Shown: positions 27,901 through 36,979, numbered from the stretch's first letter. The stretch is DNA of 42,627 bases from Promethearchaeota archaeon (GCA_019057795.1 JAHLWS010000055.1:1-42627); one strand, 5' to 3'. The notes: generated from the sequence alone by a model not told the origin. Numbers and translations: made by a program.

Positions 27901-28212
27901 TAAGTAAAGTAAAAAAAAAGATTAGAAAAAATTAGACTTCATACCGGAGACCAAGAAGATTAAAAACTCGTGTGCCCCCCATTCCGGTGCTCGCAAAAAG
28001 CCTTACAAACTTATCCTTCAAAATTTAGCCGTTTTTATCGGTGGGTACCAAACTTGTACGGACCGAACGATATGAGATATGCTATTAAATAACTCTTACA
28101 CATTAAGCAAACATAAACAAATTTATCCTCAGAAATAAAATCAATGTTGAAATCGTAAATATAAACAAACGAATTATTACATAGGTACTTTGATTAAAAT
28201 CAAAATTTCATA

Positions 28213-29376
28213 TTAGTTAAAATCTGGATTAGATAACGCATATTCAAGCGTTTGTTTCACCATTTCTGCATCAATCATTATACAGAATTCATCGTTTTTA
28301 TAAAATTTTATATCGTTAACTCTGTTACCATTGTTAAATAGCCATTCTTTTTTACTTCTAATAATGTAATTACCCAAAATTGATTTTAAAATCTTAAAGA
28401 AATGATCGCTATCAGGACTCCTCTTAAATTTGTCAGAAGTATAATCAAATGTTTCTTTGATAACGCTATAAGAGATGAAAATAGGTTTGTGAAACTCGTC
28501 TATTAAAAATCCTAAAAAGTACTTCTCAAATCTACTTGCATTCAAAATAAAATTATAAACTGCTTCTTGCTTAATATCAGATGGACCAAGCGTATCATTA
28601 AACACATTAAGAAGCAAACTTGAGGTAATATTTGGATAGTGTGATTTATTTTCTTTTAAAATTGGATACAATTTCTCAATTATCTTTAAACTATTTCCTG
28701 GAAGTCCTTTTGTCTCATCATAGACTAACATGGCGATATTTAAAATTATATCCTTATCAATTTCATGGTTAAACTTCCATTCATATAACATTTTGGTAAT
28801 TTCTAAGAACTCTTTTTCAGTAAAGGGGTGTAATTTTAATTTGAAGTCAATATTAGCTTGAATTTCAAGGGGTAATTTGCCAGAGAGACTACGAGAAAAT
28901 AGGAATAGGAAATTCGTCCTTAATTTTAAATTAACAAACTTAGTTAACAAATTTTGACGATTGCTGATATTTGGTAAAAAAATAGTGAGTGGTTTATTTA
29001 TTTTATTTAGAGTTTTATAAAAATCCATCCACAAAAAATCATTGTTTTCTAGATTAACAATTAGGTTTTTAAGGCTTACTGGGCAGTGATATTTTAATTG
29101 GTGTGAAAGACTCCGAATTATTTCTGGAAAAGTTGATTCTTTACAATCAAGGAACAAAAACAATCGGTTAGATTGGAGGAGATGTTTTTTACAATATTTT
29201 GCGAATAGAGTTTTTCTCCCCTCTCCCGTATCACCTTTACATATGATGTTAATTTTACGAAGATCAATGGACTTTTCAATCATTTCATTTAAATTAGAGG
29301 TTTCCACTTCGCGATATAATACTTTTGGGGGATAATCTTTATTTAATATATTATTTCTGTAATCTATCTCTGACAT
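28213..29376 (-). CDS. Degenerate Cdc6/Orc1-like AAA+ protein
   Basis: N-terminal LNKDYPPKVLYRE resembles the Cdc6 start; Walker A-like GDTGEGRKT; Walker B lacks DE (IFLPN); LHPFT...I and G.P box; possible C-terminal winged helix. Confidence 0.55.
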   Translation of the reverse strand: MSEIDYRNNILNKDYPPKVLYREVETSNLNEMIEKSIDLRKINIICKGDTGEGRKTLFAKYCKKHLLQSNRLFLFLDCKESTFPEIIRSLSHQLKYHCPVSLKNLIVNLENNDFLWMDFYKTLNKINKPLTIFLPNISNRQNLLTKFVNLKLRTNFLFLFSRSLSGKLPLEIQANIDFKLKLHPFTEKEFLEITKMLYEWKFNHEIDKDIILNIAMLVYDETKGLPGNSLKIIEKLYPILKENKSHYPNITSSLLLNVFNDTLGPSDIKQEAVYNFILNASRFEKYFLGFLIDEFHKPIFISYSVIKETFDYTSDKFKRSPDSDHFFKILKSILGNYIIRSKKEWLFNNGNRVNDIKFYKNDEFCIMIDAEMVKQTLEYALSNPDFN

Positions 29377-29818: not shown

Positions 29819-30139
29819 TATAATAAAAAATTAACTAAAATTTATATATTCGAAGAGAGGTAAATATTTTCAAGAAAGACCGAGAAAATGCAGATATAAG
29901 ACATAATACTCAATTTTAAATTTTTATTTTATCCTTGTTAAATTGTCAATTTTTGAAAGAATTGTATTAATCTCTTGCTCGAAAATATCTTTTTATGATA
30001 TTTGATGAAAAATTTAAATATTCCTTAATCATTATATCTTAAGAGGAATTTTTGTTTACCAATTAGTACAAAAATAATATATATTGGATAAATTAAGAGC
30101 ATATATAATAATTTAAATATAAGAGGGATAACTTGGGCG

Positions 30140-31288
30140 ATGACAAGTATATATACTAAAAAAATTGATGGTCCTGCGACACTTGCTATTGTGATTGGCG
30201 TTGGTGCTTATTCACATTTACCAGAAGGCGATGGTACCCCTTTCGAGGATAACGAAGGAATGGAACAATTAACATCACCACCATATTCAGCACGTGAATT
30301 CGCAAATTGGTTACTAAGTGAGTATAATAATCCAGATAAACCTTTGGCTTCAATAGAATTACTAATATCTGATGCTGCAAATGATAAATTCATTTTTCCA
30401 GATGATAAAGAGACCAAAATTGAAAAGGCTAACAAGTCAAATGTTAAAAAAGCCATACATCATTGGGTAAATCTTGGTGATGAAAACCGAGACAATCGAA
30501 TGATCTTCTTCTTCTGTGGTCACGGAATCGCTAGTGGTCCTTTTGTTTCGTTGCTATTAGACGATTTTGGTAAATATAAACACGCTCCCCTAGATAATAC
30601 GATTGATTTTGATGGTTTTTATCTTGGGATGGATAAGTGTAAAGCTCGCGAGCAATGTTTTTTTATTGATGCATGTCGAACTGCTTCATCGACACTTATT
30701 GAGTCATTGAATTACGCTGGAGATCCTATTATTGGTCCTTCAGCAACTCCTTCAAATCATGGAAGACGGTACGCACCTGTTTATTACTCTACAGTTCCAG
30801 GTGATAGTGCTTATGGTCGACCTATGGACACAAGTGTGTTTACAGAAGCGCTTATTAAGGCTCTAAATGGTGCTGGAAGTGATGATATCGAAGGGGATTG
30901 GCGTGTCTATACAGATAGGCTTAACATTGGGATTTATTATCTGATTAAAAGAATGATGAGTAATATTCCATTTCTCGAACAGGTTATTTCCGTCGATGGA
31001 TTAAGTAGCCCTTTTACAATTCATTATCTTAAGGGAAAACCTCTCGTCCCCGTTGCAGTGGGATGTGATCCTAAAAAGGCAAATATAATGGCACAATTCT
31101 CCTTTACTAACCAAACAACGAAAATAGAACGACCAGATATGGAACTATCGGACTGGTATATCGATATATTGGAAGGAGAATATGTCTTCAGCGCTAATTT
31201 TCCAAGGGGTCCTTATCTTAACAACGAAATAAAAAAACATGTGCGACCACCATTCCGCAAGATTCCAATTGAGGTGAGGATTAAATGA
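30140..31288 (+). CDS. Caspase-like cysteine protease (peptidase C14, ortho/metacaspase) with C-terminal beta-sandwich-like extension
   Basis: ALVIGVxxY-like first strand (AIVIGVGAY), FFFCGHG (His128), FFIDACR (Cys179), YSTVPG..AYG...SVFTEALIKAL. Confidence 0.9.
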   Translation: MTSIYTKKIDGPATLAIVIGVGAYSHLPEGDGTPFEDNEGMEQLTSPPYSAREFANWLLSEYNNPDKPLASIELLISDAANDKFIFPDDKETKIEKANKSNVKKAIHHWVNLGDENRDNRMIFFFCGHGIASGPFVSLLLDDFGKYKHAPLDNTIDFDGFYLGMDKCKAREQCFFIDACRTASSTLIESLNYAGDPIIGPSATPSNHGRRYAPVYYSTVPGDSAYGRPMDTSVFTEALIKALNGAGSDDIEGDWRVYTDRLNIGIYYLIKRMMSNIPFLEQVISVDGLSSPFTIHYLKGKPLVPVAVGCDPKKANIMAQFSFTNQTTKIERPDMELSDWYIDILEGEYVFSANFPRGPYLNNEIKKHVRPPFRKIPIEVRIK

Positions 31289-32610
31289 GTATTTTAAGAT
31301 TACGGCTTAACATTCCTTTGGAGGGAATTCCCCGATTTGGTGTATTGTCCAATATTTATGATCTTTCAGACAAGAGAAAGAGCAAACGTGATATAATTAT
31401 TCCTATAGGAACATATCAAGACTATTATGATGTTAAACTCGATCCTGGTAATTATATTATTGAAGTGATGTTGCCATCTGGACAAGTATTAAATGAAGAA
31501 GTAGCAGTTAAAAAATCGCGTAAGCCACAAGAATTGTATATATCTGCAGGTTTTTCACCGCATGAATGGCTAAGTTGGCAACAGTTCATTGGGAATGTAG
31601 AATATGAAAATTATAAGTTAATGCAAGAGAAACCGTATGTTGAAATACAAGCAAATTTAGTCTTAATTACGGCACCATTAATTACTATTGATGATAAAAG
31701 GGAAGTATCTGACCCGAATAAATTAGTCTCACAGGGTTATTTTTTTAAATTTCCATCATTAACAACTGTTCCAATTGATTCTTTATCACGCTTATCTCCT
31801 TTCAATAACTTAAATATTGATATCAAATTTGGGACCAAAATATTAGAGACAAATACTAAAGATAATTTATCAGAAGTTCATTCTTTTGGATCTGAAGATA
31901 TTCCTTACTTTGTTGATGGGGAGAGTAATAGAAAATATATTTTCGTTCGAGGTGCAAACATACCTACACAATACTGCGTCTTACCGATTCCTTGGATGGT
32001 TGTTGATCGTGGGGAATACGCAGTTGTAGAAGTTTTAATATATCATTTTGCTGTAGAATCATCAAAGATCGACTCAGGCTATAGACTGTCTGTCGTAGTA
32101 CGCGATAATCTTCTTGGTAGTATTCTAGGATACCTTGGTTCAGGAAATCTTCCAACCGCAGCTAAAATCATGGATTATTCTTACGCAAAGGAAATGCTCT
32201 TTTTAAAAATGCAGAATCCTCTTGCTGCTGCAGCTGGTGCATATGTGCTCTTGAAAATCGAAACAGGTCAGGACCAGCGATGGCATCAATGGGTTCGCAA
32301 TTTAAAAAATCGGTTTAAGTGGTTACCAGATGGTGCTATTCAGCATGCATGGACAATTTTAACTAAGCAAAACATTTCTGAAGATGAGAAAAAAGAAGCT
32401 CGTGCCAGTTTATTGGAAGGTTATCGCAGAGGAATTCCATTCTATTCAATAGGTGTAAAATTATTATTGGATGGTCTTCGATTGTTCGCTAATGATGCAA
32501 AAGTTGCAAATGAAAATGATACCGAAGTGGAAGAGGCGCTTAAGTTAATATGGCAGTTAGCTTCACGCACAAATATGCGACAACCGTTCACTACTGTAAT
32601 CGTGCGTTGA
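31285..32610 (+). CDS. Uncharacterised caspase-associated protein
   Basis: Start overlaps caspase stop (ATGA) with GAGGTGAGG RBS; N-terminal LDPGNYIIEV beta-sandwich-like region; helical C-terminus NPLAAAAGAYVLL...W..NL...F.WLPDGAI. Confidence 0.8.
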   Translation: MSILRLRLNIPLEGIPRFGVLSNIYDLSDKRKSKRDIIIPIGTYQDYYDVKLDPGNYIIEVMLPSGQVLNEEVAVKKSRKPQELYISAGFSPHEWLSWQQFIGNVEYENYKLMQEKPYVEIQANLVLITAPLITIDDKREVSDPNKLVSQGYFFKFPSLTTVPIDSLSRLSPFNNLNIDIKFGTKILETNTKDNLSEVHSFGSEDIPYFVDGESNRKYIFVRGANIPTQYCVLPIPWMVVDRGEYAVVEVLIYHFAVESSKIDSGYRLSVVVRDNLLGSILGYLGSGNLPTAAKIMDYSYAKEMLFLKMQNPLAAAAGAYVLLKIETGQDQRWHQWVRNLKNRFKWLPDGAIQHAWTILTKQNISEDEKKEARASLLEGYRRGIPFYSIGVKLLLDGLRLFANDAKVANENDTEVEEALKLIWQLASRTNMRQPFTTVIVR

Positions 32611-32656
32611 GAAATGAAAGCTAATATTTAACTATTAAATATAAATTATTAAAGGG

Positions 32657-33739
32657 ATGAAAGAGATGAGCAAAATTTTTCGCATTAAGATGTTACCTGC
32701 ACGAAATGGCGATTGTTTTTTAATACAGTACGGTGATCCTCGAAATCCTAATAAAATTTTGATTGATGGAGGAACCTCTGGTACATATAAAGACATTCAA
32801 AGTGAACTACAAAAATTACCAAGCGACCAGCACCATTTCGAGCTATTAATTGTAACCCATGTTGATAGAGATCATATTGAAGGAATCCTTGCGCTTCTGA
32901 CTAATTCAAATAATAAAGTCAAATTTGATGATATCTGGTTTAATGGTTGGCGGCATCTTCCTGGTTCTGGATTTGAAGATTTCGGTCCTGTTCAAGGAGA
33001 GAAATTGACCACCCTCCTAATAAAATCAGATATATCATGGAATAAGCGATTTAACAAGCAAAGAGTAGTTGTTTCCAAAACAGGGACATTGCCGTCGTAC
33101 GATCTCCAAGATGGCATGAAATTGTTTCTCCTTTCTCCTGGAATTGAGCAACTCAAGACCTTGCGCCCAGTTTGGAAAAGTAAATGCCGAAAAGCGGGAC
33201 TTGATCCATCAATTGTTCCAAAAGATCCAACTCCAGTTCCATCAGGATTTGAAGTGCTTGGACCTCCTAATATTGAAGTTTTATCAAATAGACCATTTGA
33301 TTGTGATGAATCAGAGACGAATGGTAGTACTATTGCGGTTTTAGCTGAATACGAAGGAAGACGTATTCTCTTAGCTGGTGATGGTTATCCAAACGTTATT
33401 CTGGAGAGTATTAAACGCCTTGTAGGATCAAATGAACAGCTTAAACTGGATGCTTTCAAGCTACCTCATCATGGTAGCAAAGCCAATATAACCCGCGATT
33501 TACTTGAAAAAATTGACTGTAAACGATATCTATTCTCAACCAACGGAGCATATTTCCAACATCCAGATAAAGAAGCTATAGCACGCGTGATTAAGTTCGG
33601 TGGCCAGAAAACTCAGCTGATATTCAATTATCGAACAAAATATAATATGATCTGGGATAATAAAAGTTTGATGAAGAAGTACGGTTATTCTGTAAATTAT
33701 TCAATTGATAAAAGTGGTCAAACAATCGATCTTTTATAA
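32657..33739 (+). CDS. MBL-fold metallohydrolase, Avs1a/ComEC-like putative nuclease
   Basis: MLPARNGDCFLI, ILIDGG, THVDRDHIEG, NGSTIA, LLAGD, KLPHHGSKAN, STNG..FQHPD. Confidence 0.88.
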   Translation: MKEMSKIFRIKMLPARNGDCFLIQYGDPRNPNKILIDGGTSGTYKDIQSELQKLPSDQHHFELLIVTHVDRDHIEGILALLTNSNNKVKFDDIWFNGWRHLPGSGFEDFGPVQGEKLTTLLIKSDISWNKRFNKQRVVVSKTGTLPSYDLQDGMKLFLLSPGIEQLKTLRPVWKSKCRKAGLDPSIVPKDPTPVPSGFEVLGPPNIEVLSNRPFDCDESETNGSTIAVLAEYEGRRILLAGDGYPNVILESIKRLVGSNEQLKLDAFKLPHHGSKANITRDLLEKIDCKRYLFSTNGAYFQHPDKEAIARVIKFGGQKTQLIFNYRTKYNMIWDNKSLMKKYGYSVNYSIDKSGQTIDLL

Positions 33740-33839
33740 TGAATTTTTTTAAAGAATAAATAAATCATAAATATGAAAATAATTCAGATAATGAATAAGA
33801 ACTTAAGAATTGTTAAGATATGTTAAAGAGGGAATTAAA

Positions 33840-34598
33840 ATGCATGAAGTTATTGTGAGTATGGAAGAGTTATTAAAGTCAACAAAAATGTCAAGTTTCT
33901 TTGAAGCTTTCGAATCTTTTGGTCCTAGAGCAGATTTAGAGCGAAAAGATGAGGAAGTACTTTCAATTGGTCACGAATTTTTTAAAGTGAAATTAATTGA
34001 TAATAAAAATGTAAAGGTTGGTAATCATGAATTTGGGATTCCAGAAGAAACGGTAAACCTACTCAATCAGAATGATTACTATTTAGTTAATTTAGCATTA
34101 ACCTGCCGTGGTGGACCATTAAAAATAACAGAAATGGAAGTTGACATAAATTTTAAAGATAATGACGATGCTACGAACCATTCAATGGATCCTATAAAAG
34201 AAATTGATGAAAAAAAGAAAACAAGAAAGTGGGGGTTGAATCCTTCATTAAAAATACATGAAGTTCTTGGAGCCTCACTAGGCGAAATTATTTCCAACGT
34301 GACTGAATACCATGTTAACATCCATAGAATTATTGGATATTATGAGTTACAACACAGAGCTGCTTGGAAATTAAAAGCTACAGATATTAATCCAGAGTTA
34401 GAAGGTACAGCAAGACTGATATTCATTTTAAAACAGCCTAAAGGAACAAACACAGGAATTGTAGTTAATTTGAGCGGAGAACTCAATTATAGGAGCTTTT
34501 GGCAATCTTTTAAAGCTTGGATAACTAGATCTGATAAATTAAAGAAAGGAAAAATTTCCCATGGAGAAGAACCCACATTTATGGTTCCAAACGAATAA
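33840..34598 (+). CDS. Uncharacterised beta-rich protein, last gene of the caspase operon
   Basis: ATG at 33840 after AGAGGGA; alternating beta-strand pattern; N-terminal FESFGP motif. Confidence 0.75.
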   Translation: MHEVIVSMEELLKSTKMSSFFEAFESFGPRADLERKDEEVLSIGHEFFKVKLIDNKNVKVGNHEFGIPEETVNLLNQNDYYLVNLALTCRGGPLKITEMEVDINFKDNDDATNHSMDPIKEIDEKKKTRKWGLNPSLKIHEVLGASLGEIISNVTEYHVNIHRIIGYYELQHRAAWKLKATDINPELEGTARLIFILKQPKGTNTGIVVNLSGELNYRSFWQSFKAWITRSDKLKKGKISHGEEPTFMVPNE

Positions 34599-34939
34599 AA
34601 GAAAAAGAGGATTTACACAGGCAACCATTTCCTTATTATCCATTGATGCTAAAGATCTTAAAAAATTCTCAGAGTCTTTAGGTTATCAACAATCAGATTT
34701 AATAATATCGAGTGGTTTTGATGCTCCAATTAAATAGTAGAAATTCTTAAGAAAGAAAAGAGAAAAAACTAAAGAGAAGATTAAAGAAGACCTACTAGTC
34801 TATAATAGGGACGATTTAAAAAGAACGAAATTTATTTACGACCTATTAAAGGCAAAATCATAAATAGGCAAAAACACATGTTAAACTAATTTGTTAAAAT
34901 TAGATTTATGAAGTTAACTCATTTAAAGGTTTTTATGTA

Positions 34940-36979
34940 ATGTTAACAAAATATCGCGGATTTAAGATACCTGAGGAAGAAGTCTTAGTACTTTTAAAAT
35001 TTGAAGAATTGATTGGAAGTGATTTTTCGGATAAAAATTTTGTTGTTGGTCTGTATGATGGTGAACCCAGATCTGGGATTAGAAAATTATATCTCTCAGA
35101 TATGGGATTAAAGACAATTCCCCGCAGTATTGGAAATTTAAAATTTTTGAGAGTATTATCCCTTAGTAATAACGAAATAACAAAAATTCCTACTGAAATT
35201 GGTAATCTTGCTTCATTAGATTATCTTGACTTAGGAAAAAATTCTATAACCATAATACCAGAAAGTATTGGTAACCTAAAAAGCCTTAACACATTAATCT
35301 TAGAAGGGAATGCATTGAAAGTACTTCCTGAAAGTTTGGGGAATCTTAAGAAGCTAGTTTACTTATATCTTGACGGGAATGAATTGAAAACACTTCCTGA
35401 AAGTTTTGGGAAACTAGAGAATCTGGTTCACTTATATCTTAACGGAAAAAAATTAAAAACAATCCCAGAGAGTTTTGGAAGACTCAAAAATCTTTCAGTT
35501 TTGCAGCTTAATAGGAATAAAATATAAACACTTCCAGAGAGTTTTGGAAGACTCAAAAATCTTTCAGTTTTGCAGCTTAATAGGAATAAAATAAAAACTC
35601 TTCCAGAGAGTTTTACTAAACTCGAAAATCTTAAGAAATTGGAACTTTTCGAAAACGAACTATCAGAGCTCCCTCCTAACATTGGTTACCTTAGAAAACT
35701 TGAGAGTTTACTTATACGGCATAACAAATTAAAAATATTACCTGATTCTATTGGAGATTTAAAATATTTAACGCGTTTTCACTTAAGTGAAAATTATATA
35801 GAATCTCTCCCATCTAGTATAAATAATTTAAGGAATTTGAAATTCCTTGATTTAAGTTATAATCTACTCACTGATTTACCCAAACTTGATTCTGATAAGG
35901 ATCTTGAATTAAGAATAGATGGGAACTTTTGGTTAAACTTTACAGCAATTCCGAATTTATTTCCAGGAGAGAAATATGATAAGTATTCTGCTTCATTACA
36001 GAAGAGAAATTTAAGAGATTTGATTGCAGCTAAAGAATACTACTGGGATTTTATCTTAGAAAAATATTATGATACTATAATAAAACAAGATGCTGAAATA
36101 GATTGGGGATTTTCATTATTTCATATCAAAGAGGAAGAGTTCATAGATTTAACCGATGATGAGATCGTAGATGTAGTCCTATTGAACGATGAGATAACAC
36201 AGTATAGAGCAGTTTCTACGCAAACAAAGCCTTCAATACATCGCAAACATCCTAATCGTAAAAAAAATTATATAAGATTGTTATTGGTTGTCGAAGATGA
36301 TTCAAAGGATATTTCTATTGAATTTCTCTTTCCATTTATCAAGAATATTACAATTACAGTAACTACAAATCGAGGTGACATTATTCCAGTTGTTTTTACA
36401 GATTTTTATTTTAAAAAAACTTGTTGGGAAAAAAAAATTGCCTATCAAACTTCAAGTATTGTTAAATTTGATCAAGGATATAATCTTGAACCTTATGCAA
36501 GGTTAAGATTTTCTGATGTACAAGTTGAATATGAAGAAGAATTAATTCCAAAGACTGAAGGATCTAATATTCTTAACGAAAAATTAGATAGGGTGATCTT
36601 GTTTTTGGAAAATAAGTTTTCTAACGAATTGAGAGGTAAAGATAGTACTGGAAAAGATCAAGAAGAAGTAAAAGAAACTAAGGGAAAGATAATAGAACTT
36701 TCTAAGAGATTTGATAAAGCTTTTAGCGAGCCCCTATTTCCAGATGTCATTCTTAAAGTAGGAAATACATTATTTGGTTGGATTGGAAAACTATCTGAAT
36801 ATTTAATGGCTGGTATTGTCTTTGCTAGTGCTTTACCTTCCGTTTTACAATTTGTTCTTACACTTATTTGGGAAGAAATCCCCTTTTGGATAGAGCTCTT
36901 GACATATTTACCTCTTATCATTTTTATTATAATATATTTTCTGAAGTTCTTGATCCGTCATAGAATTCCTAAAATTTAA
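34940..36979 (+). pseudogene. LRR protein with two C-terminal TM helices, interrupted by a single in-frame TAA (679 aa if intact)
   Basis: ORFs 34940..35527 and 35570..36979 are in the same frame; 23-aa LRRs continue across TAA at 35525-35527, where the duplicate copy has AAA. Confidence 0.8.
35465..35602 (+). repeat. 69-bp tandem duplication of one LRR unit
   Basis: 35465-35524 is identical to 35534-35593. Confidence 0.92.

What the first reader, a model, noticed from the sequence alone, without database searches (positions are those of the whole stretch)
30140..34598. Candidate Asgard protease-gated cell-death/antiviral operon: caspase + partner + MBL nuclease + beta-rich effector
Seen: four co-directional, tightly spaced genes (ATGA overlap, then gaps of about 46 and 100 bp) in an accessory region. 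Gene 1 has an intact His128/Cys179 C14 dyad. Gene 3 has the HxDxDH/HHGS signature of Avs1a-like MBL hydrolases. Established: MBL hydrolases of this type accompany trypsin-like proteases in AVAST type 1 and related anti-phage systems, and bacterial caspase-like proteases activate latent effectors such as gasdermins. Inference: a caspase takes the place of trypsin, there is no STAND/NLR ATPase in the operon, gene 2 is the sensor or regulator, and genes 3-4 are cleavage-activated effectors. A caspase-activated nuclease in an Asgard archaeon would be an analogue of apoptotic caspase-activated DNase. I cannot confirm that this exact architecture is undescribed.
Basis: partly seen in the sequence, partly recalled or inferred. 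Interest (0 to 1): 0.92.

Follow-up and report, generated by a model that had tools for sequence, protein, structure and literature searches.

The report
Archaeal Canu system with pore protein
An Asgard archaeon carries a known bacterial anti-virus system, in which a caspase-like protease switches on a DNA-cutting enzyme, plus an extra gene for a probable pore-forming protein that has the same protease cut signal and may be a second killing arm.

Summary
The four genes are real, and the host is a Promethearchaeota (Loki) archaeon. Genes 1-3 are not new: they match Canu (CanABC; Tuck et al., Science 2025), a caspase, a partner and a gated MBL pro-nuclease. That order holds in 98 of 111 Y4kD-family loci, nearly all bacterial where named. 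The trio was found in 1 of 400 Asgard genomes searched, which points to lateral gain, not an ancestor of eukaryotic CAD. The scan has met Canu before on other DNA.

Gene 4 is the new part. Its model resembles alpha-hemolysin/leukocidin beta-pore formers (Foldseek E 2e-7, Z 10.4; moderate support), with no signal peptide. Its N-terminal loop carries the E-x-F-G motif of both nuclease gating loops: third-best of 1.28 million host windows (P about 6e-4), absent from 20 homologues away from Canu. In MBL-less CanAB loci, adjacent subtilases and 2-TM proteins carry the same motif. The four genes travel as one block across strains.

Best reading: a Canu variant whose caspase cuts both a nuclease and a pro-pore protein. 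Cleavage and pore formation are untested.

The parts
30140..31288 (+). Gene 1, canA: caspase-family (C14) cysteine protease, His128/Cys179, with an ~85-aa C-terminal beta domain (Ig-like by analogy with KaeCanA)
   Evidence: Pfam Peptidase_C14 E 1.7e-10; PADLOC caspase E 1.6e-16; dyad 100% conserved; C-terminal domain conserved and weakly similar to the N-terminal Ig-like domain of gene 2 (hhalign E 1.3e-4, probability 53%)
31285..32610 (+). Gene 2, canB: Y4kD_C family (PF27295) partner; N-terminal Ig/transthyretin-like sandwich, middle beta domain, C-terminal TPR-like helical bundle; likely regulator/sensor bound to the caspase
   Evidence: 279 homologues; the 120 listed all carry PF27295 (name); model pLDDT 89.7; TPR-like Z 8-9.5 for residues 274-427; Ig-like N-domain; same motifs as KaeCanB by eye
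32657..33739 (+). Gene 3, canC: ComEC-type MBL-fold pro-nuclease with two gating insertions
   Evidence: LmuA E 6e-78, Avs1a E 5e-53; NCBIfam Avs1a 254.6 bits, under the 420 cut-off; ComEC structures E 3e-6; metal ligands conserved
32969..32989 (+). Gating loop 1 of CanC, motif GFEDFGP (E107...G110), equivalent to KaeCanC G104
   Evidence: E 92%, G 99% conserved; Kae G104K mutant listed, loss of defence reported
33245..33265 (+). Gating loop 2 of CanC, motif GFEVLGP (E199...G202), equivalent to KaeCanC G189
   Evidence: E 96%, G 99% conserved; Kae G189K mutant listed
33840..34598 (+). Gene 4: cytoplasmic protein with a predicted alpha-hemolysin/leukocidin-like beta-pore-forming fold; candidate second caspase substrate
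   Evidence: Foldseek top 50 all hemolysin/leukocidin/cytolysin-type, best E 2.3e-7; VIA Z 10.4 gamma-hemolysin, Z 9.7 with rmsd 3.2 over 147 aa NetF prepore; atlas TM 0.51-0.52 to leukocidin clusters; no hydrophobic helix
33906..33926 (+). Putative caspase site AFESFGP (residues 23-29 of 252) in a low-confidence N-terminal loop of gene 4
   Evidence: PSSM score 18.6, rank 3 of 1,276,920 host-proteome windows, P about 6e-4 per protein; not present in 20 homologues away from Canu; loop pLDDT under 50
34212..34313 (+). Putative stem hairpin of gene 4 (residues 125-158) with alternating polar and hydrophobic residues
   Evidence: Alternation conserved across 18 homologues; disordered in the monomer model
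29995..34599 (+). Four-gene block shared as a unit between strains; homology with L073/L075/L076 ends 1 nt after the gene 4 stop codon
   Evidence: a 4,691-nt contig of about 97% identity from another study covers 29995-34630

Best explanation
This is a Canu (CanABC) abortive-infection system, gained from bacteria by a Lokiarchaeon lineage and extended by a fourth gene. CanA (caspase) is held in a complex with CanB (Ig-like plus TPR-like). On sensing infection, CanA cuts at E-x-[F/L/M]-G sites. The first target is CanC, whose two gating loops are opened so that the MBL nuclease degrades DNA (shown for Klebsiella CanABC; inferred here from homology). The second target is gene 4, whose ~28-residue N-terminal cap would be removed, letting a leukocidin-like beta-sandwich oligomerise and insert its hairpin into the host membrane from inside (inferred only). 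One protease would thus launch both DNA destruction and membrane permeabilisation. Confidence: about 0.93 that genes 1-3 are Canu; about 0.65 that gene 4 is cut by CanA; about 0.5 that it is a cleavage-released pore former.
For: Caspase-Y4kD-MBL order in 98 of 111 loci with room on both sides. All Canu features listed in PMC12799240 that can be read from sequence are present. Gene 4 motif rank 3 of 1.28 million windows, missing in 20 homologues away from Canu. Independent support that the motif marks CanA substrates: adjacent same-strand ORFs reach score 15 in 4 of 220 cases versus 0 of 2,362 other ORFs (Fisher p 5e-5, but the four are related subtilases). All four sit in CanAB loci that lack the MBL, while three subtilases in MBL-containing loci lack the site. 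All four complete 2-TM proteins that replace the MBL carry E-x-[L/M/Y]-G near the C-terminus, with weaker scores of 7-15. Beta-pore fold from three searches. Gene 4 homologues sit beside other proteases: directly after TPR-CHAT (L167), two genes before a CHAT (L162) and beside EAD1-trypsin and EAD1-NACHT (L080). The four genes stay together in strains with different flanks. Complex prediction of CanA with gene 4 residues 1-120 gave weak support only: 0.42 against best control 0.02, runs agree in 51% of contacts, partner pLDDT 40-46. The mark was reached by 51 of 78 solved and 2 of 108 mismatched pairs, but at 0.60 or under by only 5 solved pairs and by all 4 passing mismatches.
Against: Gene 4 was found beside Canu only in near-identical strains; none of the other ~140 Y4kD loci has it, including the 77%-identical L001, so the link rests on one lineage and no conservation test of the motif is possible. 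The gene 4 model is mediocre (pLDDT 69, 18-sequence alignment), TM-scores are about 0.33 in Foldseek, and unrelated adhesin/cohesin sandwiches reach Z 8-9.2 against 10.4. There is no sequence match to Pfam Leukocidin or to PDB. Some gene 4 homologues have no protease close by (L077, L163). The commonest Canu neighbours (patatin, Tle1-like, alpha/beta hydrolase) lack the motif, so a neighbour need not be a substrate. The exact bond cut by CanA was not mapped in the text read. No activity was measured.
Confidence: 0.5

Rival explanations
1. Plain three-gene Canu with an unrelated passenger: gene 4 is an independent defence or orphan gene that landed in the same hotspot, and its motif is a coincidence.
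For: Gene 4 is absent from all other Canu loci and from L001; homology breaks fall right after stop codons of gene 3 (L001) and gene 4 (L073, L075), as in a gene-shuffling hotspot; 100-nt gap before gene 4; some homologues stand alone.
Against: Motif P about 6e-4, in an exposed N-terminal loop, and absent from homologues away from Canu; same strand and same block in several studies; the motif recurs in other effector swaps.
Confidence: 0.25
2. Gene 4 is a CanA substrate but not a killer: a decoy or threshold-setting inhibitor (an ICAD-like or bait role), or a beta-sandwich scaffold that regulates the caspase.
For: The motif shows recognition, not outcome; alternative fold matches include cohesins, adhesins and the alpha-2-macroglobulin receptor-binding domain at Z 8-9.
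Against: All top 50 Foldseek rows are beta-pore toxins; a conserved amphipathic hairpin occupies the stem position; in other loci the motif-bearing partners are effector-like (subtilase zymogen, 2-TM protein).
Confidence: 0.17
3. The operon is an ancient Asgard programmed-cell-death pathway related by descent to eukaryotic caspase-activated DNase.
For: Caspase-gated nuclease logic in an Asgard host; codon GC3 of the four genes (0.24-0.27) equals the host median (0.257), so residence is not very recent.
Against: Found in 1 of 400 Asgard genomes searched and 0 of 200 closer relatives; its tree neighbours with names are Chloroflexota, Coatesbacteria and Hydrogenedentes (midpoint root only); from established knowledge, CAD is a His-Me finger nuclease released from ICAD, not an MBL.
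Confidence: 0.03

Closest known systems
Canu / CanABC (Klebsiella aerogenes; Tuck et al., Science 2025, PMC12799240)
   Same: Gene order caspase - partner - MBL; caspase with C-terminal Ig-like domain; CanB homologue; two gating loops with conserved Gly; catalytic His271 equivalent; no STAND or trypsin.
   Different: Archaeal host (the paper's tree is of bacteria; no mention of archaea in its supplements); longer CanB (441 versus 347 aa); a fourth gene with a beta-pore-like fold and the same cut motif (no pore or hemolysin accessory gene found in the paper's supplement text; figures could not be read).
Trypsin-MBL modules of AVAST type 1 (Avs1a/b), Hachiman HamM, Lamassu, DRT
   Same: Same gated MBL pro-nuclease family.
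   Different: Caspase instead of trypsin, Gly-type instead of Ile cut sites, nuclease downstream of the protease, no STAND/helicase/SMC sensor.
Protease-activated pore effectors: bacterial gasdermin, EACC1, Pepco (Evans et al. 2025, PMC12642450)
   Same: Latent cytoplasmic pore former next to a caspase-like protease, released by cleavage (inferred for gene 4).
   Different: Gene 4's best fold match is the alpha-hemolysin/leukocidin family; no Pfam, NCBIfam or PADLOC model of these effectors hits it; it sits beside a nuclease under the same protease.
Alpha-hemolysin / leukocidin beta-pore-forming toxins (gamma-hemolysin, NetF, CytK, Vibrio cytolysin pro-toxin)
   Same: Predicted beta-sandwich with a stem hairpin; Vibrio cytolysin is likewise activated by removal of an N-terminal pro-part (own knowledge).
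   Different: About 10-16% identity, no Pfam match, no signal peptide, archaeal defence context; would act on the producing cell from inside.

Membership tests
Canu (CanABC) | Caspase-family protease with His-Cys dyad as first gene | tested here: met
   PF00656 E 1.7e-10; H128/C179 invariant
Canu (CanABC) | C-terminal Ig-like domain on CanA | tested here: inconclusive
   Conserved ~85-aa beta domain that matches KaeCanA's tail by eye and gene 2's Ig-like N-domain weakly; not folded on its own
Canu (CanABC) | CanB homologue (Ig-like and TPR-like) between protease and nuclease | tested here: met
   Model has Ig-like and TPR-like parts; family motifs K-x-x-[N/D]P, WLPD and LLD are visible in the published KaeCanB. 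Compared by eye only: no reference to the Klebsiella locus could be fetched
Canu (CanABC) | MBL nuclease with intact metal ligands downstream of the caspase | tested here: met
   H68, D70, D72, H73, D242, H271, H272, H302 100% conserved
Canu (CanABC) | Two gating insertions, each with a conserved glycine | tested here: met
   G110 and G202, 99% conserved, in E-x-[F/L/M]-G; equivalent to Kae G104 and G189
Canu (CanABC) | Conserved A-B-C gene order | tested here: met
   98 of 111 loci
Canu (CanABC) | CanAB-dependent nuclease activation and anti-viral defence | not testable with these tools
   Needs biochemistry and phage challenge
AVAST type 1 | STAND ATPase and trypsin-like protease in the operon | tested here: not met
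   No such hits
AVAST type 1 | Avs1a equivalog score | tested here: not met
   254.6 bits against cut-off 420
Alpha-hemolysin/leukocidin family (gene 4) | Beta-sandwich pore-forming fold | tested here: met
   Foldseek E 2.3e-7; Z 10.4 (rmsd 8.7, 178 aa) and 9.7 (rmsd 3.2, 147 aa); atlas TM 0.51-0.52; margin over unrelated sandwiches is small and the model's pLDDT is 69
Alpha-hemolysin/leukocidin family (gene 4) | Amphipathic stem hairpin | tested here: met
   Alternating pattern at 125-158 across 18 homologues
Alpha-hemolysin/leukocidin family (gene 4) | Sequence membership (Pfam Leukocidin PF07968) | tested here: not met
   No hit for any of 18 members at E up to 1; no PDB sequence hit
Alpha-hemolysin/leukocidin family (gene 4) | Secretion signal | tested here: not met
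   No hydrophobic stretch; highest 19-residue hydropathy 0.76
Alpha-hemolysin/leukocidin family (gene 4) | Oligomeric membrane pore | not testable with these tools
   Needs liposome or cryo-EM work
Gasdermin (gene 4) | Gasdermin fold | tested here: inconclusive
   Not among the listed fold matches, which does not exclude it

The most novel reading that the evidence does not exclude
Canu caspases are multi-substrate initiator proteases with a portable E-x-[F/L/M]-G cut code, and in this Asgard archaeon one caspase activates both a DNase and a cytoplasmic alpha-hemolysin-fold pore former. That would be a new class of protease-gated immune pore effector (a gasdermin analogue of toxin-like fold), whose relatives pair with CHAT and trypsin proteases in other Asgard archaea.
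Probability: 0.45. Interest if true: 0.8.

Novelty: new variant of a known kind. Interest (0 to 1): 0.6.

Why it matters
What remains is testable and useful. (1) A cut motif that predicts Canu substrates from sequence and reveals effector swaps (nuclease, subtilase zymogen, 2-TM protein, beta-pore protein) not found in the text of the Canu paper. (2) A candidate immune use of the alpha-hemolysin/leukocidin fold, known mainly as secreted toxins, acting from inside an archaeal cell. (3) One caspase driving nuclease and pore together would parallel the DNase-plus-gasdermin output of animal caspases by convergence, and extends Canu to archaea.

Tried and rejected
AVAST type 1, Lamassu and DRT assignments: only the MBL matches; partners are missing. 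Conserved four-gene operon: rejected; the gene 4 profile hits no other Y4kD locus. Vertical Asgard inheritance: rejected by distribution. Patatin, Tle1-like and alpha/beta-hydrolase neighbours as substrates by this motif: best scores 6.4, 3.5 and 6.5. A second motif-like site in gene 4 (residues 139-145, score 3.6) is within chance (P 0.16). Fetching the Klebsiella locus with short probes failed in E. coli genomes, plasmids and viral contigs, so no score against KaeCanABC was computed; the published sequences have no reference here and were compared by eye. No Y4kD relative in viral contigs. Promoter/terminator scan gave chance-level counts. No direct or inverted repeats bound the block. Short contigs from one RNA library cover the gene 3-4 gap and the 3' half of gene 4, but this does not show transcription. 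Burroughs and Aravind 2020 (PMC7685563), cited for these loci, was not available, so earlier computational mention of the gene 4 family or the subtilase swap cannot be excluded. Literature searches found no leukocidin-fold defence effector.
Full report
Observation. The four ORFs, their spacing and the catalytic motifs are as described. Gene 4 most likely starts at ATG 33840 (252 aa; residue numbers below use this start). The contig is archaeal: window proteins fall in clusters named Promethearchaeota / Loki_b31, and it carries TFIIB and a Ras-family GTPase.

Genes 1-3. Gene 1 is a C14 caspase-family protease. Gene 2 belongs to the Y4kD_C family, PF27295; its confident model has an Ig-like N-domain and a TPR-like C-domain. 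Gene 3 is an Avs1a/LmuA-like MBL below the Avs1a cut-off. I fetched 64 genome and 80 metagenome loci with the gene 2 alignment. A caspase lies directly upstream in 118 of 120, an MBL directly downstream in 117 of 131, and both in 98 of 111 (loci are not all independent). Named hosts span Pseudomonadota, Actinomycetota, Acidobacteriota, Chloroflexota and others, plus one uncultured archaeon.

Known system. This trio is Canu (Tuck et al., PMC12799240). There, CanA and CanB form a complex that converts CanC into an active nuclease, both catalytic sites and both gating glycines are needed for defence against T4, and escape maps to the dda helicase. The published Klebsiella sequences show the same motifs in all three proteins by eye. 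The mutated glycines G104 and G189 lie in E-x-[L/M]-G, matching E107-G110 and E199-G202 here; the Glu and Gly of these motifs are 92-99% conserved in 108 homologues. I could not fetch the Klebsiella locus, so no score was computed.

Origin. The system was found in none of 200 relatives and only in this genome among 400 of the phylum, apart from one 39-residue hit in an unrelated ORF. In a concatenated tree the window groups with L001 (unclassified, low GC, 77% nucleotide identity) inside a supported set whose named members are Chloroflexota and Coatesbacteria (midpoint root, so the donor is not shown). GC3 equals the host median. Lateral gain, not very recent, is the simplest reading.

Gene 4, linkage. 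It occurs in no other Canu locus. However, 97-99% identical four-gene blocks occur in several marine sediment and cold-seep studies with different flanks; homology ends one base after the gene 4 stop in L073, L075 and L076, and one contig from another study spans just the four genes.

Gene 4, fold. A deep search gave 18 other hits, 17 of them full-length at 24-34% identity. The model (pLDDT 69) is a beta-sandwich with a disordered 34-residue insert. Foldseek's top 50 are all hemolysin, leukocidin or cytolysin pore formers (best E 2.3e-7). The wide structural search ranks gamma-hemolysin, NetF, CytK, LukAB and alpha-hemolysin first (Z 9.3-10.4), with unrelated sandwiches close behind at 8-9.2. 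The ESM Atlas gives leukocidin as the nearest named family by features (0.88, a lead only) and by shape (TM 0.51-0.52), plus unnamed actinobacterial and fungal clusters. The insert alternates polar and hydrophobic residues like a pore stem, and there is no signal peptide. The assignment is moderate: no sequence profile confirms it.

Gene 4, cut site. A matrix built from 192 CanC gating loops (the window and L001 left out) scores AFESFGP at residues 23-29 of gene 4 at 18.6, higher than gene 3's own sites. Only 3 of 1,276,920 windows in the host proteome reach that score, giving P about 6e-4 for a protein of this length, and none of 20 homologues away from Canu has a site there. The site lies in a low-confidence loop before the first core strand. 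A predicted complex with CanA gave weak support only (0.42 against 0.02; partner pLDDT 40-46).

The motif as a code. Scanning neighbours of all loci, score 15 or more occurred in 4 of 220 adjacent same-strand ORFs and 0 of 2,362 others. The four are S8 subtilases with the motif in the N-terminal pro-region; all lie in CanAB loci without an MBL, and three subtilases in MBL-containing loci lack it. They are 57-78% identical, so they count as one or two events. Six further loci have a small 2-TM protein in place of the MBL; the four complete ones carry E-x-[L/M/Y]-G near the C-terminus with weaker scores, 7-15. Patatin, Tle1-like and alpha/beta-hydrolase genes are the commonest neighbours (16, 20 and 5 adjacent of 142) but lack the motif. 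CanAB therefore looks like a sensor-protease unit with exchangeable substrates.

Gene 4 family elsewhere. Homologues lie directly after TPR-TPR-CHAT in an operon with PLD and C25 genes in another Asgard genome, two genes before a CHAT protease, beside EAD1-trypsin and EAD1-NACHT in a Hodarchaeales genome, and near a TIR gene; others show no protease close by. This fits a protease-associated effector family, but the sample is small.

Mechanism. Shown elsewhere and inferred by homology: infection sensing by CanAB, cleavage of CanC, DNA degradation, abortive infection. Inferred here only: CanA removes the N-terminal cap of gene 4 protein, which then forms a beta-barrel pore in the host membrane. 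The trigger in an archaeon is unknown.

Verdict. New variant of a known kind. The core is Canu (about 0.93). The added value is a statistically supported second substrate with a pore-toxin-like fold and evidence of effector swapping; both await experiment. An earlier first-reader note on this window also proposed the FESFGP site and a beta-pore role; I saw it after my own tests, and it is not independent evidence. Interest 0.6.

Noticed in passing
L045:137-1402, L096:2527-3741, L140:293-1525, L159:3467-4648: CanAB loci without the MBL but with an upstream S8 subtilase carrying the caspase motif in its pro-region: a candidate caspase-to-subtilase protease cascade.
   Followed up: partly
L065:8644-9039, L066:8752-9213, L097, L100, L128:721-1323, L131:883-1320: A small unnamed 2-TM protein takes the place of CanC in six loci; complete copies have E-x-[L/M/Y]-G near the C-terminus.
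   Followed up: partly
e.g. L007:5666-6847 (patatin), L039:1229-2386 (Tle1-like), L017:5389-6798 (alpha/beta hydrolase): Phospholipase-like genes recur directly next to Canu (16, 20 and 5 of 142 loci) without the cut motif; role unexplained.
   Followed up: partly
L167:860-11618 (G359, Asgard): Co-directional run TPR, TPR, CHAT protease, gene-4-like protein, 435-aa unknown, PLD, C25 peptidase: an unnamed candidate protease-gated defence operon.
   Followed up: partly
L080:1-7735 (Hodarchaeales): EAD1-trypsin plus two EAD1-NACHT/AAA genes divergent from a gene 4 homologue.
   Followed up: no
L049:9303-12341: CanAB followed by a 1,012-aa PLD-C25 peptidase fusion instead of the MBL, with a patatin upstream.
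   Followed up: no
window 34940-36979: LRR membrane protein gene split by an in-frame stop at 35525-35527 inside a duplicated 69-nt LRR unit; nonsense mutation or assembly error.
   Followed up: partly
window 28213-29376 (-): 387-aa protein with a degenerate P-loop and a faint Cdc6/Orc1 match (E 0.09); linked to the block in L075 (84% identity) but not in L073.
   Followed up: partly
window 28024-28074: A 51-nt element with three further copies in the genome and one in L073; homology with L075 starts right after it (28077).
   Followed up: partly
L161:3809-7802 (pNGR234a): Rhizobial symbiotic plasmid caspase locus next to a RES-domain gene and IS21; only a distant caspase match, not examined further.
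   Followed up: no
L095:366-1889, L099:2286-3809: Two CanB proteins carry a perfect GFESFGA site internally, hinting that some CanB are themselves cut.
   Followed up: no
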